NCBI RefSeq assembly: GCF_964245445.1
Contig: NZ_CAXTNE010000006.1
Location: 3,909 to 67,908 of the forward strand
From: an uncultured Nostoc sp.
Lineage (GTDB): Bacteria; Cyanobacteriota; Cyanobacteriia; Cyanobacteriales; Nostocaceae
Reading direction: 5' to 3'
Length of the DNA stretch: 64,000 nucleotides
Positions within the stretch are counted from its first letter, which is position 1. Every line of letters starts with the position of its first letter. The notes beneath the pieces are model-generated. The model made no database searches, had not been told where the DNA came from, and was given only the letters and a program-made list of their open reading frames with translations. The translations under genes were made by a program, and so were the position numbers. Shown piece after piece: positions 6,615 to 50,484 of this stretch.

Positions 6615-7871
6615 ATGAATATATTTGAAAAGCGTGAATCAAATGTCAGAAGCTATTGCCGCAATTTTACCGCAATCTTTCATAGAGCTAAAGGTTCTAT
6701 AATTTATTCTGAATCAGGTAAAGAATATATTGATTTTTTAGCAGGAGCAGGTGCTTTAAATTATGGACATAATCACGACTATATCAAAGAAAAGGTGATC
6801 TCATACTTAGATGCCGATGGAATAACACATGGTTTGGATATGTATACTTCGGCTAAGGAGAAATTTTTAGCCAAGTTTGATGAGGTAATACTAAGTTCAA
6901 CAAAACTAGATTATCGCATTCAGTTTTGTGGACCAACAGGAACAAATGCAGTTGAAGCTGCTTTAAAACTAGCGAGAAAAATCAAACGAAGAACAGGCAT
7001 ATTTTCCTTCATGGGAGCATATCACGGAATGACTTTAGGGAGCCTATCGATTAGTGGCAACATCGAAATTAGAGCAGGCACAATTGGTACATCAAGTAAT
7101 GTAAATTTTATGCCTTATCCCTATGGATTCATGGAGAGTTTTGACACAATAGAATATATAAATTCTGTTTTAAATGATGTCAAGTCCGGAATTGAAAAAC
7201 CAGCAGCAATAATCTTTGAAACAGTGCAGGCTGAAGGTGGAGTTGTTGTAGCTCCCATTGAGTGGATGCAAAGACTAAGAAGGTTATGTGACGAGAATGA
7301 TATTTTATTAATCTGCGATGATATTCAGGTTGGCTGTGGTCGAACAGGCTCTTTCTTTTCCTTTGAAAGAGCAGATATTGTTCCCGATATGGTAGTACTT
7401 TCTAAATCTATTAGCGGGTACGGGTTTCCAATGTCACTATTATTGATTAAACCAGAATTGGATATATGGGAACCAGGTGAGCATAATGGTACTTTTCGGG
7501 GTAATCAATTGGCATTTATAGGAGCAACAGCGGCTCTAGAGTATAGAGAAAGTAGCAATCTCGAACAAGATGTCAAAGCCAAAGAACTTTTTTTGAAAAA
7601 TTTTCTCACTCAGCAAATAGCACCAATTAGTGAAAAGATAGCAATACGTGGAATTGGTATGATTTGGGGTATTGATTTAAAAAGTTTTGGCGGCAATAGT
7701 TTTGCTAAAAGTATAACATCACGTTGTTTTGAGCTAGGATTAATAGTTGAACGCGCAGGTAGAAATGATACTGTAATTAAAATTTTGCCCCCTTTGGTAA
7801 TTGATATGTCTACCTTAGAAAAAGGTTGTTCAATTATCAAAGAAGCTTTTAATGACTGCATGTCAAATTAA
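6615..7871 (+). CDS. Diaminobutyrate--2-oxoglutarate transaminase (EctB/Dat-like class III aminotransferase)
   Basis: ESNVRSYCRNF N-terminus, GPTGTNAVEAALKLARK, ETVQAEGG, DDIQVGCGRTG, PLP lysine in LSKSISG. Confidence 0.92.
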   Translation: MNIFEKRESNVRSYCRNFTAIFHRAKGSIIYSESGKEYIDFLAGAGALNYGHNHDYIKEKVISYLDADGITHGLDMYTSAKEKFLAKFDEVILSSTKLDYRIQFCGPTGTNAVEAALKLARKIKRRTGIFSFMGAYHGMTLGSLSISGNIEIRAGTIGTSSNVNFMPYPYGFMESFDTIEYINSVLNDVKSGIEKPAAIIFETVQAEGGVVVAPIEWMQRLRRLCDENDILLICDDIQVGCGRTGSFFSFERADIVPDMVVLSKSISGYGFPMSLLLIKPELDIWEPGEHNGTFRGNQLAFIGATAALEYRESSNLEQDVKAKELFLKNFLTQQIAPISEKIAIRGIGMIWGIDLKSFGGNSFAKSITSRCFELGLIVERAGRNDTVIKILPPLVIDMSTLEKGCSIIKEAFNDCMSN

Positions 7872-20135: not shown

Positions 20136-20136
20136 C

Positions 20137-33000: not shown

Positions 33001-34674
33001 TATATAAGTGAAGACTACAATACCTTACTAAAAGAATTAGTATTATCAGGTCAAACTCCAGAAAATATTGCTTATTTCTGGAGCGTAAGCTATGTTGAAA
33101 CCCGTCAAAAATGGAATTATTTAGAATTAAACAGTTTACTATTTTTAATGCAGAGCCTTAGTAAGCTGAAAATTAGCGATCGCTTACAAGTTTTGGTTGT
33201 ATCGAACAATATCCAAGAGGTTAATGGTAACGAAAAACTGGACACAGAGAAAGCAGCCATATTAGGTTTATGTAAAGTCATCCCTCAAGAGTATCCTAAT
33301 ATTACTTGTCGATGTATCGATATTGCTTTAACTAATCGCAAAGACGCAGAAAAAGGACAAGAAGATTGTGAGAGTAATATTATTGACCAACTTTTGGATG
33401 AGTTGACCTCTGTATCCTCAGACATGGTAGTTGCTTATCGCGATCGCTACCGTTGGGTACAAACGTTTGAGCCAGTTCGCTTAGAGTCAGTAGTTAACGA
33501 AAAAACACCATTGAGAAAACAAGGTGTTTACCTGTTTACTGGCGGTTTAGAAAGTATTGAAGTTGTGCTTGCAGAATATTTAGCAAAAACTTTTCAAGCA
33601 AAACTCATATTTATTGAGGATTTTAGCTTCCCAGAAAAAGACGATTTCTCGCAATGGCTGGAATCTCACACTCAAGAAGATGAAGTGAGTTGCAAAATTC
33701 AACAATTGCTTGTATTAGAAAAATTAGGTGCAAAAGTTTTGGTAATGCGTGCAGATACAACTAATTATGAGCAAATGTCTCAAAGTCTTGCATCTGAAAA
33801 TATTAGACAAATTAATGGGGTCATTTATTCAACTGGAATAAAACGCGAAAATATATTTGGTTCCATTCCAGAAATTGGTAAAATAGAATTACAAAAACTT
33901 TTAGACTCCCAACTTTGTAAGATTACAGTATTAGAACAAGTCTTACAAAATATAAAATTAGATTTTTGTATTATTTTTTCTTCTTTATCTTCCATTTTAG
34001 GAGGATTTGGATTAGGCTTATATTCAGCAGCTAATCAATCCATTGACACCTTTACTAACCGACACAACAGGAATAATTCTTTTCCGTGGTATATTATAAA
34101 TTGGGATAAATTACAACTGAATACTAACCAAGAAGAAACAACACTTGCTCAAGTATCTGGGTCAAAATTAGATATTACCCAAACAGAAACTGTAGAACTA
34201 TTTAAACGAGTATTTTCTTTAAGAGAAGGAACTCAAATTATTCTTTCTAAAGTAGATATTAATATAAGAAAGAATCATATATTTAGCCTCAACTCTCTGG
34301 CAACTTCAACATCAACTAATCAATTAGATTTATCTTCACACTACTCTAGACCTAGCCTTAGTAATTCCTATGTTGCTCCGACAAATGAGTTGGAAAAACA
34401 AATTACAGAAATATGGCAAGAGGTACTTGGGATTGCAGAAATTGGTATTTACGATAACTTCTATGAGTTAGGAGGCGACTCACTGATTGCAACTCAATTA
34501 GTTTCTCGATTGCGAACCAAATTCCCTGTAGACTTACCACTACGTGATATTTTATTTGAAGCAATGATACCAGCCAAACAAGCAGAAATAGTTGAACAAC
34601 TTCTGTTGGAAAAAATCGAAGAATTATCTGAAGAAGAAGCAGTTCTTTTGTTATCAGTTTTCCAAAATAGTTGA
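30043..34674 (+). CDS. Type I PKS KS-AT(malonyl)-KR(degenerate)-ACP
   Basis: KS TYCSTS, ETHGT, GHL; AT GHSIG with HAFH; KR NADPH motif reads GGLESIE (33541-33561) and HAAG is replaced by YSTG; ACP GGDS. Confidence 0.93.
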   Translation: MNTNIKQEQTANIDIAIVGMSGRFPGAKNIDDFWHNLQNGVESISFFSNHDLVDLNIEEEVLNEFNYVKAAPVLEDIEYFDARFFGCSPKEAEVTDPQHRLFIECAWEALENAGYDPETYEGLIGVYAGVSTNSYFFHNIYENVNLINISNNYTLNKDFLTTNISYKLNLKGPSIGIQTYCSTSLVAVHLACKSLLDEECDIALAGGVTIIVPQKSGYLYEEDGILSPDGHCRAFDAKAQGTIFGSGLGIVVLKRLKDAIADRDYIHAVIKGSAINNDGSLKVSYTAPSVNGQAEVIVEALANAGIDADDISYIETHGTGTAAGDPVEIAALTKAFRAFTRRNGFCAVGSVKPNIGHLDTASGVASLIKTVLALKYKQIPPSINFEAPNPEIDFANSPFYVNTKLTEWKANNTPRRAGVSSLGFGGTNAHLILEEAPYIKYFDDSRPWQLILLSAKTSTALDTATENLVTYLKQYPDINLANVAHTLKVGRRAFNHRRILVCESVQDAVNLLATQAQERIFTVCQEHREQPVILMFSGQGSQYANMGRELYEVEPTFKKHVDTCAVILQSHLGIDIRSLLYPREEDTQAACLQLQQTALTQSALFVTEYALTQLLMSWGVRPEAMIGHSIGEYVAATIADVFSLEDALKIVAKRGQLMQQLPSGSMLAIRLPEKDVQLLLSAQTLYKTSLQIAAINSPSSCVVSGTNEAVAALEKQLSSQEVECQLLHTSHAFHSVMMEPILSAFIQAIKTVKLNPPRIRFISNVTGSWISKEQATNPDYWCQHLRETVRFSDGISQLIQEFEGVFLEVGPGRTLSTLTTQHLDGNAKQQVLTSLRHVKEQQSDVAWLLQTLGRLWLSGVEIDWSGFYTHEQRHRLPLPTYPFERQRYWIDAKSPSTSVNTKLITLDHKQDIADWFYIPSWKRSLLHNSSSYSIKSAQQKWLFFVDDLGMAKKVIGVLKNQNKNTIFVKKGEYFSKLSEGIYTINPYISEDYNTLLKELVLSGQTPENIAYFWSVSYVETRQKWNYLELNSLLFLMQSLSKLKISDRLQVLVVSNNIQEVNGNEKLDTEKAAILGLCKVIPQEYPNITCRCIDIALTNRKDAEKGQEDCESNIIDQLLDELTSVSSDMVVAYRDRYRWVQTFEPVRLESVVNEKTPLRKQGVYLFTGGLESIEVVLAEYLAKTFQAKLIFIEDFSFPEKDDFSQWLESHTQEDEVSCKIQQLLVLEKLGAKVLVMRADTTNYEQMSQSLASENIRQINGVIYSTGIKRENIFGSIPEIGKIELQKLLDSQLCKITVLEQVLQNIKLDFCIIFSSLSSILGGFGLGLYSAANQSIDTFTNRHNRNNSFPWYIINWDKLQLNTNQEETTLAQVSGSKLDITQTETVELFKRVFSLREGTQIILSKVDINIRKNHIFSLNSLATSTSTNQLDLSSHYSRPSLSNSYVAPTNELEKQITEIWQEVLGIAEIGIYDNFYELGGDSLIATQLVSRLRTKFPVDLPLRDILFEAMIPAKQAEIVEQLLLEKIEELSEEEAVLLLSVFQNS
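31633..32714 (+). repeat. ~1082-bp direct repeat, copy 2
   Basis: Same sequence as 26937-28018. Confidence 0.95.
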
Positions 34675-34714: not shown

Positions 34715-35476
34715 ATGTCTTTAGCCAATAATGATGGAAATCATGATCCTATTGCTTCGGTATATAACGCTATAGGTGTCACTTCCGAGGCGGAAAGTAT
34801 AGCACTAATTTTAGAACAATTAATGCTAAAACACCTCTCTAAAGGAACACATATTCTCGACATTGGTTGCGCTAACGGACAGTTAGTCCAACAGTTTCAT
34901 ATAAGAGGTTATCAAACAACTGGACTTGATTGTTCTGAAAAACTATTGCACCACGCCCAAATAAATGCACCTGAAAGTAAATTTATTCTTAGTGATATAC
35001 GTAATTTTGAGTCGCTACCTACCTATGATGCAGTTTTTTCAAGAAACACTCTCGGCTTCATTCTAAACCTTGAAGAATTGACAACTGTCTTCCGAAACGT
35101 ATATGCGGCGATGCATAATAATGGTATTTTTGTGTTCGCCATAGTAACTGGGGACAGTGTATTGCGTGATAGTTTTCTACAAGATTACAATATATGTGAT
35201 GTCAATGATAAATATGTTTATGTTGAAAAAGGCAAATACAACCCAGAAGAAAGGATACGGGAACTCAAGTCCACCACGTTTGAATTGATAAATGGAATTT
35301 GGGAGCGTTCGGACAGTACTCTACTGGAAAAAAATTATTTCTCATCAGAAATTCAGTCGGCTTTAGAAAATGTGGGCTTTATAGAAATTAATCAGTATGA
35401 TAGCAAAGATTTTGGAGACCCTACTCCAGCAGGTGAAGATTGCTTCGTTTGTCGAAAACCATCCCTGACGCCATAG
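34715..35476 (+). CDS. Class I SAM-dependent methyltransferase
   Basis: Motif I ILDIGCANG, motif II TTGLDCSE, then SDIRNF and YDAVFS. Confidence 0.85.
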   Translation: MSLANNDGNHDPIASVYNAIGVTSEAESIALILEQLMLKHLSKGTHILDIGCANGQLVQQFHIRGYQTTGLDCSEKLLHHAQINAPESKFILSDIRNFESLPTYDAVFSRNTLGFILNLEELTTVFRNVYAAMHNNGIFVFAIVTGDSVLRDSFLQDYNICDVNDKYVYVEKGKYNPEERIRELKSTTFELINGIWERSDSTLLEKNYFSSEIQSALENVGFIEINQYDSKDFGDPTPAGEDCFVCRKPSLTP

Positions 35477-35663
35477 TATAATTGCAGAGATTAGTGGCTA
35501 AGTCAAAATTAATTTTTTTGATGATAGGACTTGTCACTTAATAAGCTTTTGATAACAGTATAGTTATCTGAATCAAGAGTTTGGGAATGAGAATTTTTAT
35601 TAAGCGGCAAGTCAAAATTTAGCTAAAAAACTAAAAATAATAAATATTAATAATTTCTTGGCA

Positions 35664-38600
35664 ATGGATAAACAAGACTTTAATTTATCACCAGCGAAAA
35701 AAGCCCTTTTAGAAAAATGGAAGAGAGGAAATATTCAAGCTGATATTATCCCCAAACGTCAAGTATTTAAAAATATTCCCTTATCTTTTTCTCAACAAAG
35801 ACTGTGGTTTATTGACCAGCTTTATCATGGGAGTTCTTTCTACAATATTCCCATCGCTTTTCATATCAAAGGACAGCTGAATATTAAAGTACTTCAGCAA
35901 AGTCTGAATGAAATTCTCAAACGTCATGAAGTTTGGCGCACAACTTTTAGCGTTGTAAATGGAGAGCCAGTACAGGAGATTGCACCCCAATTAACTTGGG
36001 ATTTACCCATTATTAATCTTGAGCATTTGTCTGGTAAAGATTGGGAATCTGAGGTTAAACAACTTGTAGCAGAGTCAGCGAAAAAACCTTTTAATTTAGC
36101 TAAAGGACTTTTAGTCAGAGCAACTTTACTTCGCTTGAGTGAAGAAGAACACATTTTGCTTGTGACCATGCACCACATTATTACAGATGGATGGTCTTGT
36201 AGTGTGTTCCTGCGCGAGCTGTCAATGCTATACGCTGCTTTCTTGACAAATCAACCTTCTCCCTTACCCGAACTCCCCATTCAGTATGCAGATTTTGCAA
36301 TTTGGCAACGCGATCGCATCCAAGGTGAATTCCTCGCAACCCAACTAAATTATTGGAAGCAACAACTCAAAGCTGAGTTACCTGTACTACAATTACCTAC
36401 ATACCGTCCGCGACCTAAGGTTACTACTTTCAGTGGTGCCAAGCAGTACTTTACATTCTCAAAAGCCCTAACTGACGTACTCAGACAATTAAGCCAGCGA
36501 GAAGACGCGACTTTATTTATGAGTTTGCTGGCAGCATTTAACATATTATTATATTGTTACACAGACCAAGAAGATATCTTAATTGGTTCTCCAATTGCCA
36601 ACCGCAACCGCGCAGAATTAGAAGGGATGCTAGGTTTATTTGTTAATACTTTGGTGTTACGTAATAACCTCAGTGGTAATCCCAGTTTCCGCGAATTTTT
36701 ACATCGAGTCCGTGAGGTGACTCTCGATGCTTATGCACATCAAGATTTGCCTTTTGAGATGCTTGTGGAAAAATTGCAACCCGAACGCCACTTAAGCCGA
36801 AATCCACTTTATGAAATCATGTTTGTCCTGCAAAATACTCCAACGTCTGTGCAGGAAGTGTCTGGATTAACCTTACGTACCTTGGAATTTGATAGTGGAA
36901 CAGCTCAACTAGATATTTTCTTGTCGATATCTGAATCTCAAGAAGGGTTAACAGGGTCTTTGGAGTACAATACAGATATTTTTGATTCAACAATGATTAC
37001 TCAATTTATCAACAATTTCCAAACATTGTTAGGGAATATTGTTGATAATCCAGAGCAGCGCATCAGTGAGTTGTCACTACTAACTGCTTCTGAGCAAGAA
37101 CAACTATTATTTAAATTTAATCAAACTAGTGCTGATTATCCTCAAGATACATCTTTGCATCAATTATTTGAGCAACAAGTAGAATTAACACCTGATTCTT
37201 TAGCGTTAATTAGCCAGTCTGAGAAACTGACTTATCGTCAACTTAACCACAAAGTTAATCAACTTGCACATTATCTACAAAAACAGGGTGTAACAAAAGA
37301 AACGCTGGTTGCCCTATGTGTGGAACGCTCCATAGAGATAGTGACAGGAATTTTAGCTATTCTTAAAGCTGGTGGTGCATACATTCCCCTCGATCCAAGT
37401 TATCCAGTGGAACGCCTGAATTTCATGCTCTCTGATTCCCAAGCATCGCTGTTAATTACCAAGCAAGAGATATTAGAAAAACTATCATTATCTTCGGCTA
37501 AAACCGTTTGTTTAGATATCCAAAAAGATGAAATCGCTCAAGAAAGTTCGGAAAATCCCATTAACATTTATTTATTTGATAATCTCGATAATCTCGCCTA
37601 TATTATCTACACTTCTGGCTCAACTGGAACACCTAAAGGCGTTCTTGGCACTCATCGCGGTACAGTCAACGGCTTACACTGGTTATGGAAAACCTATCCT
37701 TTTACGCAAGGAGAAGTTTGTTGTCAAAAAACAGCTACTAGTTTTGTAGATTCTGTATGGGAAATTTTTGCTCCTTTACTTCAAGGAATTCCTACAGTAA
37801 TTATCAGCAATGCAACTATACTAGACCCGCAACTATTTATAGAAGCTCTGGCACATCACAAAGTAAGCCGTATTATACTTGTACCTTCACTACTAGGCTT
37901 ACTTGTTGATAATTACAGTCATTTGACCAAAAAATTATCGCAGCTAAAACTTTGGATAACTAGCGGGGAAACACTATCTATTAACTTAGCTAAAACTTTT
38001 CGAGAATTAATGCCATTTGTAAAATTAATTAACTTTTATGGCTCCTCAGAAGTTTCCGCCAACGCTACTTACTATGATACTAGTTTATTACAAGAGCAAG
38101 CCAGCAGTGTCCCTATCGGTAGTGCTATTGACAATACTCAAATTTATGTGTTGAATCGTGATTTAAAATTAACACCTATAGGAGTGATTGCAGAACTTTA
38201 TATTGGTGGTGATGGATTGGCGAAGGGTTATTTACATCGTCCGGAATTAACTCAAGAAAAATTTATTGATAACCCCTTTGTTCCTGGAACCAAGCTTTAC
38301 AAAACAGGCGATTTTGTGCGTCATCTAAACGATGGTAGTCTAGAGTATTTGGGTCGTCAGGATGAACAAGTAAAAATTAGAGGTTTTCGAGTAGAATTGG
38401 ATGAAATTACGGCTGCGATCGCCCAACATCCAGATGTACAAGAATCTGTTGTCATTGCCAGCAATGATGCTCAAGAAAATCAGCGTTTGATTGCCTATGT
38501 CGTCACAAATAAACAGGATTTAACTACACAACTTTTGTCCTATTTGCAGCATCAATTGCCTAATTACATGCTGCCATCTGCTTTCGTTGTGCTGGATAAG

Positions 38601-39770
38601 CTCCCACTTACACCTAATGGCAAAGTAGATAAGCGTTCTCTGCCAATTGATGAAGTTATCCGATCAACTACTATCCAATCATTTGTTGCTCCTCGGAATT
38701 TTACAGAATTATCATTAGTAAAACTTTGGGAAAATCTCCTAAATACTAACCCTATTGGGGTAACAGATAACTTCTTCGACTTGGGTGGTCACTCGTTTTT
38801 AGCTGTACGCTTAATGGCTCAAATTCATGACAGATTCGAGCATAATCTTCCCTTGTCTACTCTTTTTGAAAACCCGACAATTGAAAAACTAGCAAGCATT
38901 GTCAGTCAGCCAGCCCGTCAGAGTTCTAATTCTCCTCTAGTAGCAATTAATTCTTCTGGTTCTAAGATACCTTTTTTCTGTATGCATGGTGCTGGTGGAG
39001 GTATTAGTCACTATTTTAATTTATCCCGAAGACTTGGTGAAGATTATCAATTTTACGCTTTGGAAGATACCTTAGAACAAGACAAACCAGAAATTATTTC
39101 AGTAGAAGAGACAGCAACTCGCTACCTCCAAGAAATTCGTAAAATACAACCAAATGGCCCTTATCTTTTAGGTGGTCATTGTTATGGCGGTGTACTTGCT
39201 TTTGAAATAGCGCAACAATTACAAAATAAGGGTCAAACAGTAAGTTTATTAGTTGTCATCGATGCCATACTATCAGAAACACCCATTGAATCTACAGACG
39301 ATGACGATGCAAAATTTTTACTCCGCATCGCTGAATCAATAAAAACCGATAATAATATAGACTTTGTAGTACCTTTTGAAGAACTTCGAGATTTGCCATT
39401 AAATCAGCAACTTCATTTTATTAATCAAAAAGCAAAGTTCATCTTTAGCGATACAGAAATTAACGATTTTCTTCACCATTACAATCTGTTTAAAGCTCAT
39501 GTCCAAGCTATGCGAGGTTATATTCCGCAGATTTATCCAAAAAAAATGACTTTATTCCGAGCAAAGGAGGAAATAATCCATGATTTTGAAAGCCCTGAAT
39601 GGAATACCGACGATCCATTTCTAGGTTGGGAGAAATTTTCAAATCAACCTATACAAATAATTGAAATTCCAGGCGACCATTTTTCAATTTTCGTAGAACC
39701 TTATATTGAAGAATTAGCTAAACGTTTGAAAATTTGTATCGATCATGCTGTGTGCGATCTAAATAATTAA
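35664..39770 (+). CDS. Terminal NRPS C-A(beta-Ala)-T-TE
   Basis: C MHHIITDGWS. A domain SFVDSVWE has Val at the usual Asp235 position; code by eye VDWIISFANK is close to the beta-Ala code VDWVISLADK. T GGHS; TE GGHCYGG and GDHFS. Confidence 0.93.
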   Translation: MDKQDFNLSPAKKALLEKWKRGNIQADIIPKRQVFKNIPLSFSQQRLWFIDQLYHGSSFYNIPIAFHIKGQLNIKVLQQSLNEILKRHEVWRTTFSVVNGEPVQEIAPQLTWDLPIINLEHLSGKDWESEVKQLVAESAKKPFNLAKGLLVRATLLRLSEEEHILLVTMHHIITDGWSCSVFLRELSMLYAAFLTNQPSPLPELPIQYADFAIWQRDRIQGEFLATQLNYWKQQLKAELPVLQLPTYRPRPKVTTFSGAKQYFTFSKALTDVLRQLSQREDATLFMSLLAAFNILLYCYTDQEDILIGSPIANRNRAELEGMLGLFVNTLVLRNNLSGNPSFREFLHRVREVTLDAYAHQDLPFEMLVEKLQPERHLSRNPLYEIMFVLQNTPTSVQEVSGLTLRTLEFDSGTAQLDIFLSISESQEGLTGSLEYNTDIFDSTMITQFINNFQTLLGNIVDNPEQRISELSLLTASEQEQLLFKFNQTSADYPQDTSLHQLFEQQVELTPDSLALISQSEKLTYRQLNHKVNQLAHYLQKQGVTKETLVALCVERSIEIVTGILAILKAGGAYIPLDPSYPVERLNFMLSDSQASLLITKQEILEKLSLSSAKTVCLDIQKDEIAQESSENPINIYLFDNLDNLAYIIYTSGSTGTPKGVLGTHRGTVNGLHWLWKTYPFTQGEVCCQKTATSFVDSVWEIFAPLLQGIPTVIISNATILDPQLFIEALAHHKVSRIILVPSLLGLLVDNYSHLTKKLSQLKLWITSGETLSINLAKTFRELMPFVKLINFYGSSEVSANATYYDTSLLQEQASSVPIGSAIDNTQIYVLNRDLKLTPIGVIAELYIGGDGLAKGYLHRPELTQEKFIDNPFVPGTKLYKTGDFVRHLNDGSLEYLGRQDEQVKIRGFRVELDEITAAIAQHPDVQESVVIASNDAQENQRLIAYVVTNKQDLTTQLLSYLQHQLPNYMLPSAFVVLDKLPLTPNGKVDKRSLPIDEVIRSTTIQSFVAPRNFTELSLVKLWENLLNTNPIGVTDNFFDLGGHSFLAVRLMAQIHDRFEHNLPLSTLFENPTIEKLASIVSQPARQSSNSPLVAINSSGSKIPFFCMHGAGGGISHYFNLSRRLGEDYQFYALEDTLEQDKPEIISVEETATRYLQEIRKIQPNGPYLLGGHCYGGVLAFEIAQQLQNKGQTVSLLVVIDAILSETPIESTDDDDAKFLLRIAESIKTDNNIDFVVPFEELRDLPLNQQLHFINQKAKFIFSDTEINDFLHHYNLFKAHVQAMRGYIPQIYPKKMTLFRAKEEIIHDFESPEWNTDDPFLGWEKFSNQPIQIIEIPGDHFSIFVEPYIEELAKRLKICIDHAVCDLNN

Positions 39771-39788: not shown

Positions 39789-41129
39789 ATGAAACTACCT
39801 CCAGGACCGAAAACTCCTTCTTGGTTGATAGCTCTACAATTTAAGGCTGATCCCTTTGGCTATATGGATACTATTTCCAAACGTTATGGTGATATTGTCA
39901 CTTTAATGTTTGGCTTTACACCAAGAATTTATATCAGTAATCCTTCAGCAATAAAGGAGATTTTTACAAATACCAAGGAAATTGTAGCTGGGGGTGAGTT
40001 GAACCCGGAGTTCGTCTTGATGACAGGAAATCAAGGAGTTCTCCAACTTGATGGTTTAATTCACAAAAATCGACGCAAACTGTTAATGCAGAGTTTTCAT
40101 GGAGCGCGGATGCAAGCCTGTGGGCAACGTATATGCGAACTTACAGAAAAAATTATCAGTCAACAGGCAGTCGCAAAGCATTTTGTTGCATACCCAATAA
40201 TTGAAGATATTACCTTGCGAGTGGGTATAGAAGTTGTAATGGGTTTATATAGAGGAGAGCGCTATGACAAAATTAAGCATTTATTTGTGTCTGCACTTAG
40301 ACATGGAGAATCTCCAGTAAATAAGATTCTTAGCAATATTTTTGGAGAAAGAGATTTAGGTCGATGGAGTCCATATGGTTCTCTCCTTCACCTTCGACAA
40401 CAACTTTTTCAATTGCTATTGAGTGAGGTGGAAGAACGTCGCAAGCAAGCAGATTTTTCACGCGTTGATATGATTAGCGATCTGATATTTGCTAAAGATG
40501 AAACAGGTCAACCACTAAGTAATGAAGAAGTACGCGACCTCTTATTATCGCCTATATTTGCAGCTGGTGATGCTTCCGGAACTGCGATCGCTTGGTCTTT
40601 GTACTGGATTCACCGTTTACCTTATATTCATCATCGCCTGCTATCAGAACTAGACAGCCTTGGTGAAAACCCAGATCCCATGAGCATTGTTGCACTACCC
40701 TACCTCAGCGCAGTTTGTAATGAAGCCTTACGAATTTACCCAACTCAGTTGTTTACATTTCCCAGGCTGGTAGAGTCTCCAGTCGAGGTGATGGGTTACA
40801 AGTTGAATCCTGGTACAATAGTTATTGGTAATATTTATTCCACTCATCAACGCGAAGATTTATACCTTAATCCAAAAGAATTTCAGCCAGAGCGCTTTTT
40901 AGAAAAACAATTTTCTCCCTACGAATTTTTCCCATTTGGTGGCGGCTCTCGGGTTTGTATTGGCGGGACTTTTGCTCTATTTGAAATGAAACTTATATTA
41001 GCAACTATTCTTTCCCGTTATGAATTAGAGCTAGTTAGTCAGCGCCCAGAACGTCCCAAATTTGGAGGTCTAATTTGTTACCCAGCTAGCGGCGTCAAGA
41101 TGGCCGTGCGTGGTCTGCGTCAACATTAA
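39789..41129 (+). CDS. Cytochrome P450 (CYP110-like)
   Basis: KLPPGP N-terminus, EALR (ExxR), PERF, heme motif FGGGSRVCIG. Confidence 0.95.
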   Translation: MKLPPGPKTPSWLIALQFKADPFGYMDTISKRYGDIVTLMFGFTPRIYISNPSAIKEIFTNTKEIVAGGELNPEFVLMTGNQGVLQLDGLIHKNRRKLLMQSFHGARMQACGQRICELTEKIISQQAVAKHFVAYPIIEDITLRVGIEVVMGLYRGERYDKIKHLFVSALRHGESPVNKILSNIFGERDLGRWSPYGSLLHLRQQLFQLLLSEVEERRKQADFSRVDMISDLIFAKDETGQPLSNEEVRDLLLSPIFAAGDASGTAIAWSLYWIHRLPYIHHRLLSELDSLGENPDPMSIVALPYLSAVCNEALRIYPTQLFTFPRLVESPVEVMGYKLNPGTIVIGNIYSTHQREDLYLNPKEFQPERFLEKQFSPYEFFPFGGGSRVCIGGTFALFEMKLILATILSRYELELVSQRPERPKFGGLICYPASGVKMAVRGLRQH

Positions 41130-41215: not shown

Positions 41216-42550
41216 ATGAAACTACCTGATGGCCCAAAAACTTCTCGCCGATTACTCAGTCAATTTGAGACTGATCCCCTTACCTTCATGGATACTATGG
41301 GCGATCGCTATGGCGACATTTTCACTATTATGGCTGATTCAATACCTCTAGTAATAATCAGCAACCCAGAAGGGATGAAGCAGATTTTTACTAATGCAAA
41401 AGAGATTACAGCTTCTGGTAAGTTGAATCAAGGTGGAGAATCAATTGTCGGCAAGAATGGGTTGCTTGCACTAGATGGGTTGCGTCACAGAAATCGCCGT
41501 AAGTTGTTGATGTCACCGATGCGCGAAACTCAGACACAAGAATATGGACAGCATATTTGTAGAGTCACAGAAAAAGTTATGAATCAACTGACTTTAGGTA
41601 AATCTTTTCTTGCTTATCCCACTATGCAAAAGATTACCCTAGAAGTAGTTTTGCCATCATTATTTGGGTTACATCAAGGAGAGCGTTACGAACAATTTCG
41701 ACAACTGTTTTCTAATCTAATAAGTTACGCTCGGTCTCGCTGGCTGGACATCTCTCTGTCCTATCCTTTTCTAAAGAGGGATTTGGGTCCCTGGAGTCCT
41801 TGGGGATACTGGCTTCACTTACAACGACAATTTGACAAACTGCTCCACATCGAAATTGAAGAGCGTCACCAACAAGTAAATGCTTTGCGTACCGATGTAT
41901 TATCAGAACTGGTATTTGCTTACGATGAAACTGGTCAAGCAATGACCTATGAATATATACGAGATTTGTTTCCATCATTGCTATTTGGTGGTCAAGATGC
42001 GTCAGCCACTGCTATAAGTTGGTCTTTGTACTGGATTCATAGTACACCTGGTGTTCGCGATCGCTTATTAGAAGAACTTGACAGTCTTGGTGAATCCCTA
42101 GAACCTGGGAAGATTATTGCATTACCTTACTTAAATGCTGTTTGTAATGAATCCCTACGAATTTATCCAACTCAGGTTGTGACATTTCCACGACTTGTAG
42201 AATTACCAATTGAAGTCATGGACTACAAATTAGACCCAGGTACCGTAGTAAGAGGATGTATATACTTAACTCATCAACGAGAGGATTTATATCCACAACC
42301 AAAGCAATTCAGACCAGAGCGCTTTCTAGAAAAAGAATATTCTCCCTATGAGTTTCTACCATTTGGTGGTGGCGCTCGTCGCTGTCCAGGTGAGTTATTA
42401 GCACTTTTTGAAATGAAACTGGTATTAGCAACAATTCTCTCACGCTATCAATTAGCGTTAGCAGATAAAAGAGTAGAGAAACCTAAGGCTAGGGGCGTTA
42501 ACTATCCTCCTGCTAGTGGCTTGAAGATGGTAATGCTTGGGTCACGGTAA
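41216..42550 (+). CDS. Cytochrome P450 (CYP110-like), tandem paralogue
   Basis: KLPDGP, ESLR, PERF, heme motif FGGGARRCPG. Confidence 0.95.
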   Translation: MKLPDGPKTSRRLLSQFETDPLTFMDTMGDRYGDIFTIMADSIPLVIISNPEGMKQIFTNAKEITASGKLNQGGESIVGKNGLLALDGLRHRNRRKLLMSPMRETQTQEYGQHICRVTEKVMNQLTLGKSFLAYPTMQKITLEVVLPSLFGLHQGERYEQFRQLFSNLISYARSRWLDISLSYPFLKRDLGPWSPWGYWLHLQRQFDKLLHIEIEERHQQVNALRTDVLSELVFAYDETGQAMTYEYIRDLFPSLLFGGQDASATAISWSLYWIHSTPGVRDRLLEELDSLGESLEPGKIIALPYLNAVCNESLRIYPTQVVTFPRLVELPIEVMDYKLDPGTVVRGCIYLTHQREDLYPQPKQFRPERFLEKEYSPYEFLPFGGGARRCPGELLALFEMKLVLATILSRYQLALADKRVEKPKARGVNYPPASGLKMVMLGSR

Positions 42551-42568: not shown

Positions 42569-43945
42569 ATGACTTCACAAAACCAATCTAAAATAAAAAA
42601 GGAGATCCTTCAAGGTAACATCTTAAAACTGATGTTCAAGTTATCAGCCCCTGGCATTCTAGTAATGCTGCTGATTAATATGAATGCTTTTATTGATGCT
42701 CTATTTGCTGGGCAGTTTATAGGAGAAACAGCAATTGCTGGCATATCTTTATCTCTACCACTTACTGCTATCATCGATGGTTTTGCTTACTTAGTTGGAA
42801 CAGGTTCAGCTTCTGTCCTGAGCCAAGCTATTGGTGCTGGAGATATAAAAACTCAGTCCAAAATATTTGGCAATTTAATTATAATGGGTATTTTTATATC
42901 CTTTTTTATTACTATAATTGGCTACAGTTTTAGTGAAGAATTAATTAAATTAATGGGAGGAAGTGGTCAAGTAGCTTTTGTCGGTTCTGAATACTTTAAA
43001 ACTTATATGCTAGGCGCAGTATTTTATATTTTAGCAGTAGCTTCCAACCAACTTATTAAGTCAGAAGGTAAAGTTAGATTAGCTATGACTTTTGCAGGTA
43101 TTTATGTCATTATTAATATAATTTTAAATCCTATATTTGTTGTAGTTTTTCATTGGGGTATCCGGGGAATTGCTCTTGCTACTGTTATTGCTATGATAGT
43201 ATTTTGTATAATAAACTTTATATACTTCTTATCTGGTAAAAGTTCTATTCCAGTGAATCCTAGAAAGCTGGCTCTAGCAATAAATTTACTTCCGAGAATT
43301 TTATCAGTGGGAATGTCAGCATTACTCGCTAATGTTATGGAATTAGTTCAAAATTTTGTTGTTTTTAAATCTATCTCCTATTACGGAACAAATAGTGATA
43401 TTGCTTTCTACGGAGCAACTATAAGATTGACTTTATTAGCATTCATTCCTTTAAATGGATTTGTGCAAGCATTACAACCAGTGATTGGCATAAATTATGG
43501 AGCCAAAAATTATGATAGACTGAAAAAAGCTTATTTTACTTTTATTATTTCTGTGACTGCTTTAGCTGTGTTATTTTGGTTGCCAATGCAATTATCACCA
43601 GAAATATTTTTAAGTTGGCTATTGCCAAATTCGACTTTCACAAACAATGATTTACTCAATTTTCGCGTTTTGAGTTTATTAATACCAACAATAGCTTTTG
43701 TTCCCTTTGGTTCAGTTTTATTTCAGTCTATAGGAAAGGGTAAAACTGTTTCTATAATAATTATTTTAAATAATCTAGTTTTATTTATTCCATTAGTGGT
43801 TATTTTATCAAATTTACTAGGTGTTAGTGGTGTATATTATGGAATAGCTATAACAGACTTTTTACTGATGATTATTGCACTTCTGTTAACATTTATTGAA
43901 TTCAAAAAAATGAATATAAATCATCTCAAAGATAATCATTATTAA
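42569..43945 (+). CDS. MATE family efflux transporter
   Basis: About 12 hydrophobic segments; IDALFAGQFIG, SQAIGAGD, NIILNPIF, GIRGIALAT, QPVIGINYGAKNYDR. Confidence 0.9.
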   Translation: MTSQNQSKIKKEILQGNILKLMFKLSAPGILVMLLINMNAFIDALFAGQFIGETAIAGISLSLPLTAIIDGFAYLVGTGSASVLSQAIGAGDIKTQSKIFGNLIIMGIFISFFITIIGYSFSEELIKLMGGSGQVAFVGSEYFKTYMLGAVFYILAVASNQLIKSEGKVRLAMTFAGIYVIINIILNPIFVVVFHWGIRGIALATVIAMIVFCIINFIYFLSGKSSIPVNPRKLALAINLLPRILSVGMSALLANVMELVQNFVVFKSISYYGTNSDIAFYGATIRLTLLAFIPLNGFVQALQPVIGINYGAKNYDRLKKAYFTFIISVTALAVLFWLPMQLSPEIFLSWLLPNSTFTNNDLLNFRVLSLLIPTIAFVPFGSVLFQSIGKGKTVSIIIILNNLVLFIPLVVILSNLLGVSGVYYGIAITDFLLMIIALLLTFIEFKKMNINHLKDNHY

Positions 43946-44027
43946 ACTATCAATATAATTCCAATTGTATTCATTTTAAATTGTAGTTCTCACACATGCA
44001 TATTTATTCACTATAAAGGTCACAAAA

Positions 44028-44906
44028 ATGCCTCTAAAACATAAAGGTGCTATCGTAATTACAGGAGCATCAACAGGTGTAGGCAGAGCAGCAGCTCTTA
44101 TGCTTGACAAAAAAGGATATCGAGTGTTTGCATCAGTCCGTAAAGAAAAAGATGCTGAATCTCTCAAGAGTGATTCCTCCGAGAATTTGACACCGATTTT
44201 CATGGATATTACAAAAGCAGAAGAAATCAAATCTGCCGCAGATATTGTTTCAAAATCTATTCCTGATGAAGGATTAGTAGGATTAGTAAATAATGCTGGT
44301 CTGTTAGTTGATGGGCCACTGGAGTTTATTTCGCTTGATGATCTGAGATGGCAATTTGAAGTCAATGTTTTTGGGCAAATAGCAGTGACGCAGGAATTTT
44401 TACCGTTAATCCGAAAAGTTAAAGGTCGGATTATTAATATTGGCTCTATCGGAGGAGTAATTTCTGGACCATATATCTCTGCTTTGTGTGCTTCCAAGTT
44501 TGCGTTAGAGGCATTTACCGATGCTCTGAGAATAGAATTACATCCTTGGGGAATCGAAGTTATCTTAATTGAACCAGGCTCAATTGCATCTGCGGCTCCG
44601 GATAAAGTAGAAGAAAGCTTTAGAAAAAATTTTGCCAATATGTCACCTGATGCTAAAGCAATGTATGGAGATACATATAAACTTTTTGTAGAAGATTTAA
44701 TTCAATCAAATCGTGAAGGGATGCCGCCGGAACAAGTTGCAGATGCAATTATAAAGGCTTTAGAAGTCAGGAAGCCTAAAACACGTTATTTCTTATCTAA
44801 GGGGCAGCTAGGTTTAATGCTTGAACTAGTGCTGAAAAAATTTACACCAGACCGTAGTTATGATGCAATGATTATAAAAAGTTTGAATTTAAAACATCAG
44901 ATTTGA
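44028..44906 (+). CDS. Short-chain dehydrogenase/reductase with atypical catalytic motif
   Basis: TGASTGVG, LVNNAG, EVNVFG, IEPGSI; the YxxxK position reads LCASK. Confidence 0.9.
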   Translation: MPLKHKGAIVITGASTGVGRAAALMLDKKGYRVFASVRKEKDAESLKSDSSENLTPIFMDITKAEEIKSAADIVSKSIPDEGLVGLVNNAGLLVDGPLEFISLDDLRWQFEVNVFGQIAVTQEFLPLIRKVKGRIINIGSIGGVISGPYISALCASKFALEAFTDALRIELHPWGIEVILIEPGSIASAAPDKVEESFRKNFANMSPDAKAMYGDTYKLFVEDLIQSNREGMPPEQVADAIIKALEVRKPKTRYFLSKGQLGLMLELVLKKFTPDRSYDAMIIKSLNLKHQI

Positions 44907-45005
44907 ATTCATTATTGTGCATTTTATCCGGTTGAATACTCAAATCATAAGTATATCACTGGAATATTACAGACAATCAACACTTAGTTAATTCACTTCA
45001 AAATC

Positions 45006-46046
45006 ATGATTTCATCTGATTCAAAACCTAATAATACAGACTTTCAAATCAGTCCGATAGAATGGGTACATGCTTACTGGGTTTCACGGTGTATCTATGT
45101 CGTCGCTAAACTTGGTATTGCTGATTTGCTAAAGGATGGTTCTCAACATTGCGATATTTTAGCTGCTGCAACAAATACGCATAGTGATTCTCTATATCGA
45201 GTTTTGCGGGCGATCGCCAGTATCGGAATTTTTGCGGAGACACAAACTCGATGCTTTGAGCTAACACCATTGGCAGATTGTTTACAAAGCAACGTTCCTG
45301 ACTCAATTCGTGCTATGGCTATTTTCCGAGGTGAAGAGCATTACTATAAATCCTGGGGAAATTTAATGTATTGCTTACAAACTGGTAAAAGTGCCTTTGA
45401 AGATTTGTATGGTATGGATTTGTTTGAATACAATGAACAGAATTCCAGCCGAGGAGAAATCTTCGACCAGGCTATGACTTCATCAAAAGATTCTTATACC
45501 GAACACCTGGAAGCTTATGATTTTTCGTCAATTAATAAGCTAATAGACGTTGGTGGTGGTAAAGGGAGCTTTTTAGCTGCTGTACTCGAAGCTAATCCTA
45601 CTATGATAGGAGTATTGTTCGATCAGGCAGAAGTGATTAATAGAGCCAAGGATTCACAAGAAATAGCATCCGTTATTAGTCGTTGTCAGCTTGTAGGAGG
45701 TAGCTTTTTTGAAGCTCTGCCACAAGGAGGAGATGCTTATGTTCTTAAACATATTATTCAGGACTGGGATGACGAGCGATCGCTTGCTATTCTTCAACGT
45801 TGTCATCAAGCCATGATAGAGCAAGGACGGGTTTTAGTGATAGACTACGTACTTCCTCCTGCTAACGAGTTTTCAGGAAGCAAGTTTATAGATGTCAACA
45901 TGTTAGTAATGTGTCCAGGTGGACGTATTCGTACTGAAGCTGAGTTTGAAGATTTATTTAAATCAGCAGGTTTCAAACTTACTAAAATTTATCCAACACA
46001 ATCGGATGTTAGTATTATTGAAGGAGTTAAAATAGATATCAATTAA
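45006..46046 (+). CDS. Family-2 O-methyltransferase-fold SAM methyltransferase with dimerisation domain
   Basis: AKLGIADLL dimerisation region, LIDVGGGKG, GSFFEALP, KHIIQDW, GGRIRTEAEF. Confidence 0.9.
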   Translation: MISSDSKPNNTDFQISPIEWVHAYWVSRCIYVVAKLGIADLLKDGSQHCDILAAATNTHSDSLYRVLRAIASIGIFAETQTRCFELTPLADCLQSNVPDSIRAMAIFRGEEHYYKSWGNLMYCLQTGKSAFEDLYGMDLFEYNEQNSSRGEIFDQAMTSSKDSYTEHLEAYDFSSINKLIDVGGGKGSFLAAVLEANPTMIGVLFDQAEVINRAKDSQEIASVISRCQLVGGSFFEALPQGGDAYVLKHIIQDWDDERSLAILQRCHQAMIEQGRVLVIDYVLPPANEFSGSKFIDVNMLVMCPGGRIRTEAEFEDLFKSAGFKLTKIYPTQSDVSIIEGVKIDIN

Positions 46047-48404: not shown

Positions 48405-48450
48405 AAGACTACTTCGCTCATATAGAGTTTGAGCAAATTAATTATTGGGC

Positions 48451-48486
48451 AAGAGAGCGATCAATAGATGCGATCGCTCTCTTTTC
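48451..48486 (+). terminator. Rho-independent terminator after splB-like gene
   Basis: AAGAGAGCGATC / GATCGCTCTCTT stem (48451-48462, 48472-48483) followed by a T run. Confidence 0.65.
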
Positions 48487-48572
48487 AGGTTGCTCAGGTG
48501 CGTTAGGGTAAAGCCGTAACACATCCTACTTAAGATTTACTTTATAAATGGTGTCTTACCTTTAAAACCTAT

Positions 48573-50479: not shown

Positions 50480-50484
50480 AGTTT

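What the first reader, a model, noticed from the sequence alone, without database searches (positions are those of the whole stretch)
38930..39770. Thioesterase with a cysteine nucleophile (GHCYG)
TGT at 39180-39182 replaces the usual Ser, and the Asp (VIDA) and His (GDHF) are kept. Characterised Cys-TEs include ObiF (beta-lactone) and SulM (beta-lactam), where the more reactive thioester supports strained-ring formation. After a beta-Ala residue this could mean unusual cyclisation, macrolactamisation onto a Dab amine, or aminolysis by a free diamine (inference).
Basis: partly seen in the sequence, partly recalled or inferred. Interest (0 to 1): 0.7.

Follow-up and report, generated by a model that had tools for sequence, protein, structure and literature searches.

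The report
Cysteine thioesterase ending a Nostoc assembly line
The release domain of this Nostoc peptide-polyketide assembly line does use cysteine in place of serine, but it is unrelated to the known strained-ring cysteine enzymes and belongs to a gene cassette conserved across Nostocales that looks built to close a beta-alanine-derived pyridone-type ring.

Summary
ORF 35658-39770 is an NRPS termination module (C-A-T-TE). Its TE carries GHCYG, with TGT at 39180-39182, Asp111 at 39261-39263 and His250 at 39678-39680.

The cysteine is not an error. It is present in all 81 related loci examined (79 TGT, 2 TGC).

The ObiF/SulM analogy fails. Those enzymes have a relocated Asp, and SulM has Gln-Cys-Asn. 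This TE keeps the canonical Asp and has His-Cys-Tyr. Its best sequence and structure match is the uncharacterised Cys-TE of AB3403; ObiF1 scores only E = 0.084.

The Cys clade is nested among Ser-TEs. It is tied to a conserved cassette:
- a last PKS module that cannot reduce its beta-keto group, seen in three architectures (dead KR, no KR, KS-ACP only);
- a beta-alanine-type A domain (code VDWSIS[L/F]ANK), with a PanP aspartate decarboxylase that is fused to the module in one relative;
- the Cys-TE;
- a P450 starting a median of 24 bp downstream.

This parallels kirromycin pyridone formation: KirD, KirB, the Cys-Asp-His Dieckmann cyclase KirHI, and the P450 KirOI.

My best explanation (confidence 0.42, inferred) is that the TE releases the chain by Dieckmann cyclisation to a 3-acyl-dihydropyridone. 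Plain hydrolysis is the main rival. I found no described product.

The parts
35658..39770 (+). NRPS termination module C-A-T-TE (1370 aa; TTG at 35658, with ATG two codons later at 35664)
   Evidence: Pfam finds Condensation aa 39-484, AMP-binding 504-859, AMP-binding_C 916-989, PP-binding 1020-1080 and Thioesterase 1106-1346. The HHIITDG motif is intact.
38931..39767 (+). Thioesterase domain (279 aa) with a Cys84-Asp111-His250 triad
   Evidence: PF00975 scores 101.4 bits. The AF2 model has mean pLDDT 93.5. The best Foldseek match is AB3403, 4ZXH, TMq 0.80. phmmer against AB3403 gives 2.1e-30.
39180..39182 (+). TGT codon for the nucleophile Cys84 (GHCYG)
   Evidence: Read directly. Cys is invariant in 81 of 81 loci.
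39261..39263 (+). GAT codon for Asp111 (VVIDA), at the canonical triad position
   Evidence: It aligns with the catalytic Asp of AB3403 and Pks13. The column is at least 90% conserved in alignment A2.
39678..39680 (+). CAT codon for His250 (PGDHF)
   Evidence: It aligns with the catalytic His of AB3403 and Pks13.
37167..38624 (+). Adenylation domain with the beta-amino-acid-type specificity code VDWSISFANK
   Evidence: The code was extracted by motif alignment. VDWSIS[L/F]ANK occurs in 79 of 82 sequences and also in the fused PanP-NRPS relative P0101.
30043..34674 (+). Last PKS module, KS-AT-KR0-ACP; the AT is malonyl-specific and the KR is degenerate
   Evidence: The KR scores only 70 bits against 167-170 for its two sister modules. 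GGLESIE replaces GGLGGIG, IED replaces VGR/IGR, and the catalytic Lys is lost. The AT carries GHSIGE...HAFH. The degenerate KR is conserved in 66 of 75 loci.
34715..35476 (+). Free-standing class I SAM methyltransferase between the PKS and the NRPS genes
   Evidence: Pfam Methyltransf_25/31/11. No informative equivalog or PDB relative was found. It is present in most but not all related loci.
23627..25273 (+). PanP, a PLP-dependent aspartate 1-decarboxylase that supplies beta-alanine
   Evidence: TIGR03799 scores 614.7 bits against an equivalog cut-off of 606.1. It is 58% identical to the decarboxylase domain fused to the C-A-T-TE module in P0101.
39789..41129 (+). Cytochrome P450 (P450a), starting 19 bp after the TE stop codon
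   Evidence: PF00067 scores 237 bits. A P450 begins a median of 24 bp after the TE in 78 of 81 loci. The nearest PDB relative is CYP120.
41216..42550 (+). Second P450 (P450b), a paralogue of P450a
   Evidence: PF00067 scores 236 bits. It is 56% identical to P450a. A second P450 is present in 44 of 81 loci.
42569..46046 (+). MATE exporter (42569-43945), SDR (44028-44906) and O-methyltransferase (45006-46046): probable export and tailoring genes
   Evidence: Assigned by Pfam. MATE and SDR recur downstream in most related loci.
6615..7871 (+). EctB-type diaminobutyrate-2-oxoglutarate transaminase (Dab supply; cluster context)
   Evidence: TIGR02407 scores 575.6 bits against a cut-off of 552.2. 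The adjacent A domain at 7925-10696 has the code DIWTISADDK.

Best explanation
The TE is a type I thioesterase in which a Ser-to-Cys change became fixed in a Nostocales-wide clade. I propose it acts as a built-in Dieckmann-type off-loading cyclase.

Proposed steps:
1. The last PKS module cannot reduce its product, so it hands a beta-ketoacyl chain to the C domain.
2. The A domain loads beta-alanine made by PanP, giving N-(3-oxoacyl)-beta-alanyl-S-T.
3. The chain moves to Cys84 as a thioester.
4. His250/Asp111 help the active methylene attack that thioester. This releases a 3-acyl-piperidine-2,4-dione, i.e. a 3-acyl-4-hydroxy-5,6-dihydro-2-pyridone.
5. The adjacent P450(s) then oxidise the ring, for example to the 2-pyridone.

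Shown: the Cys triad and its invariance, the clade position, the beta-Ala-type module and PanP, the non-reducing upstream module, and the TE-P450 adjacency.

Inferred: the Dieckmann step, the role of the P450, and any metal-binding function of the product.
For: 1. Cys is invariant in 81 of 81 loci at 69-92% identity. The Cys clade is nested among Ser-TEs.

2. The Cys is tightly coupled to a beta-amino-acid-type A domain. VDWSIS[L/F]ANK occurs in 79 of 82 sequences. The nearest Ser-TE neighbours follow alpha-amino-acid A domains or PKS modules.

3. PanP is in the cluster, above its equivalog cut-off. In the 48%-identical relative P0101 it is fused as PanP-C-A-T-TE(GWCYG).

4. The module directly upstream is non-reducing in three independent architectures:
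- KS-AT-KR0-ACP in the window and in 66 of 75 loci;
- KS-AT-ACP in L033 and seven other loci, where the KR has been deleted;
- KS-ACP in L082, with an intact KS Cys-His-His.
The beta-keto group that Dieckmann chemistry needs is therefore conserved.

5. A P450 starts a median of 24 bp after the TE in 78 of 81 loci, and also in L082.

6. There is a direct precedent in kirromycin. [quoted passage not shown] The KirHI family has a Cys88-Asp115-His253 triad on a TE-like fold. The P450 KirOI makes the ring C5-C6 double bond (PMC4979870; PMC5818483; PMC10956176).

7. In BpdE, a member of that family, C89S abolishes function.

8. The 55-56% relatives sit next to TonB-dependent receptors and transporters. 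That fits a chelating acyl-dione or pyridone product.
Against: - No biochemical or metabolite data exist, and I found no described cyanobacterial product of this kind.
- The TE is not detectably closer to NcmC/TrdC-type cyclases than to ordinary TEs. NcmC is absent from the PDB sequence and Foldseek lists shown.
- C-terminal TE domains that perform Dieckmann cyclisation in bacteria are reported with Ser, so Cys is not required for that chemistry.
- Its nearest solved relatives have no known chemistry (AB3403) or transfer acyl groups to an alcohol (Pks13).
- The free-standing methyltransferase at 34715-35476 could O-methylate the enol or doubly C-methylate the methylene. Either would block Dieckmann closure.
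- KR inactivity is inferred from motifs only.
Confidence: 0.42

Rival explanations
1. Plain hydrolytic release. The Cys-TE simply hydrolyses the acyl-beta-alanyl thioester to a linear acid ending in N-(3-oxoacyl)-beta-alanine. On this reading the Cys is a neutral or kinetically tuned substitution, and the P450s act elsewhere on the chain.
For: Hydrolysis is the default TE chemistry. Cys replaces Ser repeatedly in this TE family: 12 pure-Cys clades and 32 of 177 domain hits among the top representatives. That suggests the swap is easily tolerated. AB3403, the closest solved Cys-TE, has no special chemistry assigned.
Against: It does not explain why Cys is invariant in 81 of 81 loci. It also does not explain the strict coupling to a beta-Ala-type module, a non-reducing PKS module kept in three architectures, and an abutting P450.
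Confidence: 0.25
2. Macrolactamisation or aminolysis. The thioester on Cys84 is attacked by the side-chain amine of the Dab residue, or by a free amine, giving a macrolactam or a C-terminal amide.
For: EctB is in the cluster and the adjacent A domain has a code consistent with a basic amino acid, DIWTISADDK. A thioester acyl-enzyme is a good acyl donor for amines (general chemistry).
Against: EctB was not detected within 10 kb of the TE in any of the 81 loci, whereas the KR0-PKS/beta-Ala/P450 cassette is constant. The decarboxylase is PanP (614.7 bits), not a Dab decarboxylase (152.9 bits against a cut-off of 900), so no diamine-forming pathway is indicated.
Confidence: 0.12
3. Acyl transfer. 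Like Pks13 TE, or SyrC/CmaE-type Cys hydrolases, the domain passes the chain to an acceptor such as a sugar, an alcohol or another carrier protein, rather than releasing it by water or cyclisation.
For: After AB3403, the Pks13 TE is the best sequence and structure match (E about 4e-19; NCBIfam mycolic_Pks13 segment hit). That Cys hydrolases shuttle thioesters (SyrC, CmaE) is from my own knowledge and was not checked here.
Against: No candidate acceptor-forming gene or second carrier protein is conserved next to the TE. The similarity to Pks13 is only 24-25% identity by Foldseek.
Confidence: 0.1
4. Strained-ring (beta-lactone or beta-lactam) formation as in ObiF and SulM.
For: Only the shared Cys nucleophile.
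Against: The Asp is at the canonical position, not the relocated one. The motif is His-Cys-Tyr, not Gln-Cys-Asn. The terminal residue is beta-Ala and has no beta-OH or beta-NH nucleophile. ObiF1 scores E = 0.084, and SulM is not among the 60 best of 65 matches at E<=10.
Confidence: 0.03

Closest known systems
TE domain of AB3403 (Acinetobacter baumannii NRPS termination module, PDB 4ZXH/4ZXI)
   Same: It is a type I TE fused to C-A-T, with a Cys nucleophile and Asp at the canonical position. It is the best sequence match (phmmer 2.1e-30) and the best structure match (Foldseek E 1.2e-21, TMq 0.80, rmsd 3.1).
   Different: Identity is only about 29%. In the NJ tree it falls in a separate pure-Cys clade, so the Cys probably arose independently. 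It sits in a different cluster context, and both its product and its chemistry are unknown.
TrdC/SlgL/LipX2/KirHI/NcmC/BpdE family of TE-like Dieckmann cyclases
   Same: Both have a Cys-Asp-His triad on an alpha/beta-hydrolase scaffold. [quoted passage not shown] The kirromycin pathway also has an Asp decarboxylase and a ring-desaturating P450. The model here has a four-helix insertion at residues 125-195.
   Different: Those enzymes are free-standing, occur in clusters that lack a TE, and are actinobacterial. Here the domain is fused to the T domain. No significant sequence match to NcmC was seen in the PDB searches. The activity here is inferred, not shown.
ObiF and SulM Cys-thioesterases (beta-lactone and beta-lactam formation)
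   Same: They are C-terminal NRPS TE domains with a catalytic Cys.
   Different: Their Asp is relocated to a RifR-like position with Gly at the canonical site, SulM has Gln-Cys-Asn, and their substrates carry a beta-nucleophile. None of this holds here, and sequence similarity is negligible (ObiF1 E = 0.084).
Pks13 thioesterase (Mycobacterium tuberculosis)
   Same: It belongs to the same TE subfamily, has a long helical lid, and is the second-best sequence and structure match.
   Different: It has a Ser nucleophile, transfers mycolates to trehalose, and sits at the end of a PKS rather than an NRPS.

Membership tests
Type I NRPS/PKS thioesterase domain (PF00975, alpha/beta-hydrolase) | Significant match to the family profile, located C-terminal to a carrier domain | tested here: met
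   PF00975 scores 101.4 bits against a cut-off of 26.4, at aa 1106-1346, directly after PP-binding 1020-1080.
Type I NRPS/PKS thioesterase domain (PF00975, alpha/beta-hydrolase) | Nucleophile-Asp-His triad at the canonical positions | tested here: met
   Cys84, Asp111 and His250 align with the triads of AB3403 and Pks13. The nucleophile is Cys rather than Ser.
Type I NRPS/PKS thioesterase domain (PF00975, alpha/beta-hydrolase) | Alpha/beta-hydrolase fold with a lid insertion | tested here: met
   The AF2 model has pLDDT 93.5. The top 50 Foldseek hits are all TE domains.
ObiF/SulM-type strained-ring-forming Cys-TE | Catalytic Cys nucleophile | tested here: met
   GHCYG.
ObiF/SulM-type strained-ring-forming Cys-TE | Catalytic Asp relocated to position II (RifR-like), with Gly at the canonical site (PMC6668435, PMC11298585) | tested here: not met
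   Asp111 occupies the canonical site (VVIDA aligned to AB3403 VMIDT). That column is at least 90% conserved in homologues.
ObiF/SulM-type strained-ring-forming Cys-TE | Gln-Cys-Asn motif (a SulM criterion) | tested here: not met
   The motif is His-Cys-Tyr in 73 of 81 loci, and Phe or Trp-Cys-Tyr in the rest.
ObiF/SulM-type strained-ring-forming Cys-TE | Last module loads a residue with a beta-hydroxyl or beta-amino nucleophile (beta-OH amino acid, Dap) | tested here: not met
   The A-domain code is VDWSISFANK with the V235/D236 shift, and PanP is in the cluster, so the residue is beta-alanine. The code-to-substrate step is an inference.
ObiF/SulM-type strained-ring-forming Cys-TE | Closer sequence relationship to ObiF or SulM than to ordinary TEs | tested here: not met
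   ObiF1 scores E = 0.084 (about rank 50). SulM is not among the 60 best of 65 matches at E<=10. AB3403 scores 2e-30.
AB3403-like Cys-TE (Cys with canonical Asp) | Cys nucleophile together with Asp at position I | tested here: met
AB3403-like Cys-TE (Cys with canonical Asp) | Common descent of the Cys state with AB3403 | tested here: inconclusive
   In an NJ tree of 198 TE domains the two fall in different pure-Cys clades separated by Ser-TEs. The tree has no support values.
TrdC/NcmC/KirHI-type TE-like Dieckmann cyclases | Cys-Asp-His triad on a TE-like alpha/beta-hydrolase core | tested here: met
   The family description is from PMC4979870 and PMC10956176.
TrdC/NcmC/KirHI-type TE-like Dieckmann cyclases | Free-standing protein in a cluster that has no TE domain | tested here: not met
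   The domain is fused to C-A-T in the window and in all full-length loci.
TrdC/NcmC/KirHI-type TE-like Dieckmann cyclases | Sequence or structure relationship to NcmC, including its four-helix-bundle subdomain | tested here: inconclusive
   NcmC is absent from the 60 best PDB sequence hits and the 50 best Foldseek hits. The model does have four lid helices at residues 125-195, but no direct superposition was possible.
TrdC/NcmC/KirHI-type TE-like Dieckmann cyclases | Substrate is an N-(beta-ketoacyl)-aminoacyl thioester | tested here: met
   This is inferred from sequence. The upstream module is non-reducing in three architectures and the AT is malonyl-specific.
TrdC/NcmC/KirHI-type TE-like Dieckmann cyclases | Dieckmann cyclisation activity | not testable with these tools
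   It needs an enzyme assay with N-acetoacetyl-beta-alanyl-SNAC, or a product structure.

The most novel reading that the evidence does not exclude
A fused Cys-nucleophile thioesterase has evolved in cyanobacteria, independently of the actinobacterial stand-alone Dieckmann cyclases, to close a beta-alanine-derived 3-acyl-dihydropyridone or pyridone head group. With its abutting P450, it marks a Nostocales-wide family of so far undescribed, possibly metal-binding, peptide-polyketides (211 related loci in species-representative genomes).
Probability: 0.35. Interest if true: 0.7.

Novelty: new variant of a known kind. Interest (0 to 1): 0.55.

Why it matters
Only a few Cys-nucleophile thioesterases have known chemistry: ObiF, SulM and the stand-alone Dieckmann cyclases. 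The one solved Cys-TE with a canonical triad, AB3403, has no assigned reaction.

This locus gives a large natural data set, 81 loci examined out of 211 found. In it the Cys is fixed and travels with a defined chemical context: a beta-keto polyketide, beta-alanine and a P450. That turns the question of what the Cys is for into a specific assay that can be run.

If the Dieckmann reading is right, three things follow:
- It would be an example of convergent evolution of pyridone off-loading in cyanobacteria.
- It would give a sequence rule for genome mining: VDWSIS[L/F]ANK, plus G[HFW]CYG, plus a non-reducing last PKS module.
- It would point to an overlooked, widespread class of Nostocales metabolites, some encoded next to TonB-dependent receptors.

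If it is wrong and the TE merely hydrolyses, the finding is an ordinary variant TE.

Tried and rejected
1. ObiF/SulM-like chemistry was rejected on triad geometry, motif, substrate and sequence distance.

2. I first suspected that the transaminase and decarboxylase form a Dat/Ddc pair making 1,3-diaminopropane for aminolytic release. NCBIfam assigns the decarboxylase to PanP (614.7 bits against 606.1), not RhbB-type Dab decarboxylase (152.9 bits against 900), so I dropped this.

3. The word-indexed homologue search suggested that Cys is the majority state (about 60 of 95). The exhaustive representative search showed this was a sampling bias: Ser 138, Cys 32 among the top representatives.

4. 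I tried to identify the source contig by exact look-up of the P450, and nothing was on record.

5. Literature searches for a described product or cluster (beta-Ala/P450/Nostoc; Dieckmann/pyridone/cyanobacteria; dihydropyridone) found nothing relevant.

6. A profile search of the PDB with alignment A2 was confounded by the carrier-domain columns and added nothing beyond AB3403.

7. The function of the methyltransferase at 34715-35476 could not be narrowed by NCBIfam or PDB.

8. The P450s could not be assigned a reaction. Their nearest solved relative is CYP120 at 108 bits.
Full report
**1. The observation**

The window around 38930-39770 lies in one long ORF, 35658-39770 (1370 aa). Pfam resolves it as Condensation, AMP-binding, PP-binding and Thioesterase (PF00975, 101.4 bits, aa 1106-1346).

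The in-frame TE is 38931-39767 (279 aa). It reads ...PYLLGGHCYGGVLAFE..., with TGT at 39180-39182. HMMER alignments to solved thioesterases place:
- Cys84 on the nucleophile (AB3403 GGWCFGG; Pks13 VGWSLGG);
- Asp111 (VVIDA, 39261-39263) on the catalytic Asp;
- His250 (PGDHF, 39678-39680) on the catalytic His.

An AlphaFold2 model built on 48 sequences has mean pLDDT 93.5. It shows an alpha/beta-hydrolase core with four lid helices at residues 125-195.

**2. The cysteine is under selection**

A scan of one genome per species found 211 loci encoding a relative. The best 80 are all Nostocales (Nostoc, Scytonema, Calothrix, Fischerella, Tolypothrix, Westiellopsis and others), at 69-92% identity.

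In all 81 loci examined the nucleophile codon is Cys (79 TGT, 2 TGC). The motifs are GHCYG in 73, GFCYG in 7 and GWCYG in 1.

**3. Place in the TE family**

An exhaustive HMMER search of 1.84 billion representatives gave 37,293 relatives at E<=1e-3.
- Among domain hits in the 150 best representatives, Ser is the nucleophile in 138 and Cys in 32.
- The three nearest representative clusters carry G[HW]CYG. Everything next to them carries Ser.

In a neighbour-joining tree of 198 TE domains the window groups with P0001, P0002, P0006, P0007, P0096 and P0101 in a pure-Cys clade nested among Ser-TEs.
- AB3403 falls in a different Cys clade.
- There are 12 pure-Cys clades, and the inferred root state is Ser.
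- The tree has no support values.

So 'Cys replaces the usual Ser' is right in the evolutionary sense, but the swap has happened repeatedly in this family. An earlier impression that Cys is the majority state was a bias of the word-indexed search.

**4. The ObiF/SulM analogy**

The structural papers on ObiF1 and SulM state the following (PMC6668435, PMC11298585):
- In these beta-lactone and beta-lactam formers the catalytic Asp is moved to a RifR-like position, with Gly at the canonical site.
- SulM has a Gln-Cys-Asn motif, a positively charged pocket and a Dap-loading last module.
- AB3403 is the only other structurally characterised TE with a Cys, and it keeps the canonical Asp.

The TE here keeps the canonical Asp, has His-Cys-Tyr, and follows a module that loads an amino acid without a beta-nucleophile (section 5).

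By sequence, AB3403 is the best PDB match (2.1e-30), followed by Pks13 TE (about 4e-19). ObiF1 scores E = 0.084, about rank 50, and SulM is not among the 60 best of the 65 matches at E<=10. By structure, Foldseek ranks AB3403 first (TMq 0.80, rmsd 3.1) and then Pks13. Neither ObiF, SulM nor NcmC appears in the top 50.

The strained-ring reading is therefore not supported.

**5. What travels with the Cys-TE**

*(a) The A domain.* Its specificity code is VDWSISFANK. The V235/D236 shift is typical of beta-amino-acid activation (my own knowledge).
- VDWSIS[L/F]ANK occurs in 79 of 82 sequences.
- The nearest Ser-TE neighbours follow alpha-amino-acid A domains or PKS modules.

*(b) Beta-alanine supply.* The cluster encodes PanP, a PLP-dependent aspartate 1-decarboxylase (23627-25273; 614.7 bits against an equivalog cut-off of 606.1). 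In the distant relative P0101 (48% TE identity, GWCYG) a PanP domain is fused to the module as PanP-C-A(VDWSISLANK)-T-TE.

*(c) The last PKS module is non-reducing.*
- In the window it is KS-AT-KR-ACP (30043-34674) with a malonyl-specific AT (HAFH).
- Its KR has GGLESIE in place of GGLGGIG, has IED in place of VGR/IGR, and has lost the catalytic Lys. It scores only 70 bits, against 167-170 for the sister modules.
- The same degenerate KR is present in 66 of 75 loci.
- Eight other loci, such as Nostoc linckia NIES-25 (L033), have KS-AT-ACP with the KR deleted.
- L082 has a 765-aa KS-ACP with an intact KS Cys-His-His.
- Three architectures therefore give the same outcome: the beta-keto group is retained.

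*(d) An adjacent P450.* A P450 gene starts a median of 24 bp after the TE in 78 of 81 loci, and also in L082. A second, paralogous P450 (56% identity) is present in 44 loci.

*(e) Other neighbours.* MATE and SDR genes usually follow. The 55-56% relatives P0007 and P0096 are followed by a TonB-dependent receptor, transporters, a P450 and a type II TE.

**6. Mechanism proposed**

The predicted substrate of the TE is N-(3-oxoacyl)-beta-alanyl-S-T. This is the substrate class of KirHI in kirromycin biosynthesis.
- KirD, an aspartate decarboxylase, supplies beta-alanine.
- KirB loads it as the last unit.
- KirHI closes the pyridone by Dieckmann condensation while releasing the chain.
- The P450 KirOI introduces the ring C5-C6 double bond (PMC4979870; PMC5818483).

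KirHI belongs to the TrdC/NcmC family. These enzymes have a thioesterase-like alpha/beta-hydrolase subdomain, a four-helix bundle and a Cys-Asp-His triad. In the family member BpdE, C89S abolishes function (PMC10956176).

I therefore propose that the Cys-TE here is a fused functional counterpart. The chain is transferred to Cys84. The active methylene, assisted by His250/Asp111, attacks the thioester. A 3-acyl-piperidine-2,4-dione (4-hydroxy-5,6-dihydro-2-pyridone) is released, and the P450(s) then oxidise it.

The anatomy and its conservation are shown. The Dieckmann step, the P450 role and a metal-binding function are inferences. I put the confidence at about 0.42.

**7. Reasons for caution**

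- There is no biochemical or metabolite evidence, and I found no described cyanobacterial product.
- The TE is an ordinary type I TE by sequence and is not detectably related to NcmC beyond the shared fold.
- C-terminal TE domains that perform Dieckmann cyclisation are reported with Ser, so Cys is not required for that chemistry.
- The free-standing methyltransferase (34715-35476) could modify the beta-keto methylene or enol and block cyclisation. Its function could not be narrowed.

Rival explanations:
- Plain hydrolysis (0.25) is the main one.
- Macrolactamisation on the Dab amine or aminolysis (0.12) is possible in this cluster. EctB is at 6615-7871 (575.6 bits against 552.2) and the neighbouring A-domain code is DIWTISADDK. 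EctB was not detected within 10 kb of the TE in any of the 81 loci, and no diamine-forming decarboxylase is present.
- Pks13-like acyl transfer (0.10) has no conserved acceptor gene.
- Beta-lactone or beta-lactam formation (0.03) is contradicted.

**8. Novelty and verdict**

Cys-nucleophile TEs are known, so the bare observation is a new member of a known kind. Three features look new:
- an independently derived, invariant Cys clade;
- its strict coupling to a beta-Ala module, a non-reducing PKS module and a P450;
- its spread over at least 211 species-level genomes with no assigned product.

I rate it a new variant of a known kind, conditional on the inferred chemistry, with interest 0.55.

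The decisive test is simple. Incubate the TE with N-acetoacetyl-beta-alanyl-SNAC, alongside C84S and C84A variants, and determine the C-terminal structure of the product in a cassette-bearing strain.

Noticed in passing
window 817-3335 and 15946-18463; 26937-28018 and 31633-32714: There are large internal repeats. About 2.5 kb of the two C-A-T-E NRPS genes is 90% identical, and their A-domain segments from the TSGSTG motif to the A10 motif (about 330 aa) are identical, with code DLFSNALTYK. A 1082-bp stretch covering the AT domains of the last two PKS genes is 99.8% identical. This suggests recent duplication or gene conversion within the cluster.
   Followed up: partly
window 5013-6413, 6615-7871, 7925-10696: A free-standing full C domain (466 aa) is followed by the EctB gene and then by an ORF that starts with only the C-terminal half of a C domain before A-T. 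It looks as if the ectB insertion, or a rearrangement, split or duplicated part of a module.
   Followed up: no
window 20014-23469 versus 15480-20135: The listed TTG start of the C-A-T gene overlaps the preceding gene by about 120 bp, so the true start is probably further downstream. Its A-domain code, DVETIGAVSK, has an acidic residue at position 239, which hints at a basic substrate.
   Followed up: no
L082 10001-15652 (protein P0101): This is a natural gene fusion of a PanP-type aspartate decarboxylase to a C-A-T-TE module. It is preceded by an AT-less, KR-less KS-ACP protein and followed by a P450, a phage-type integrase and an IS605 OrfB gene.
   Followed up: partly
proteins P0020-P0058 (one search list): This is a large group of free-standing carrier-protein-plus-TE proteins of about 375-395 aa, with GYC[L/M/G]G (Cys nucleophile). 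They occur on long contigs from diverse metagenomes, and JGI names them 'phthiocerol synthesis PKS type I PpsE'. They form the largest pure-Cys clade in the tree, with 26 members.
   Followed up: no
proteins P0098, P0102, P0108, P0110-P0113, P0117, P0125: These megasynthases have two TE domains, adjacent in some (P0098, P0102) and widely separated in others (P0108, P0110-P0113), in which both carry Cys (mostly GYCFG). One TE of each often has Asn or Glu in place of the triad Asp. P0116 combines sulfotransferase-TE(GRCFG)-TE(GHALG).
   Followed up: no
L001 1586-8262 and L085 2059-5854: The 55-56% identical Cys-TE relatives are followed directly by a TonB-dependent receptor with an AMIN domain and by ABC or MFS transporters. 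Several loci (L033, L085, L086) also carry a Suc_Fer-like (PF06999) gene next to the MATE gene. This hints that the products are metallophores.
   Followed up: partly
window 47316-63068: Genes downstream of the O-methyltransferase look unrelated to the cluster: a spore-photoproduct-lyase-like radical SAM protein, an M50 peptidase, a GHL10 hydrolase, an arginase-family protein, an FAD monooxygenase and an amine oxidase fragment. The cluster probably ends near 46046.
   Followed up: no
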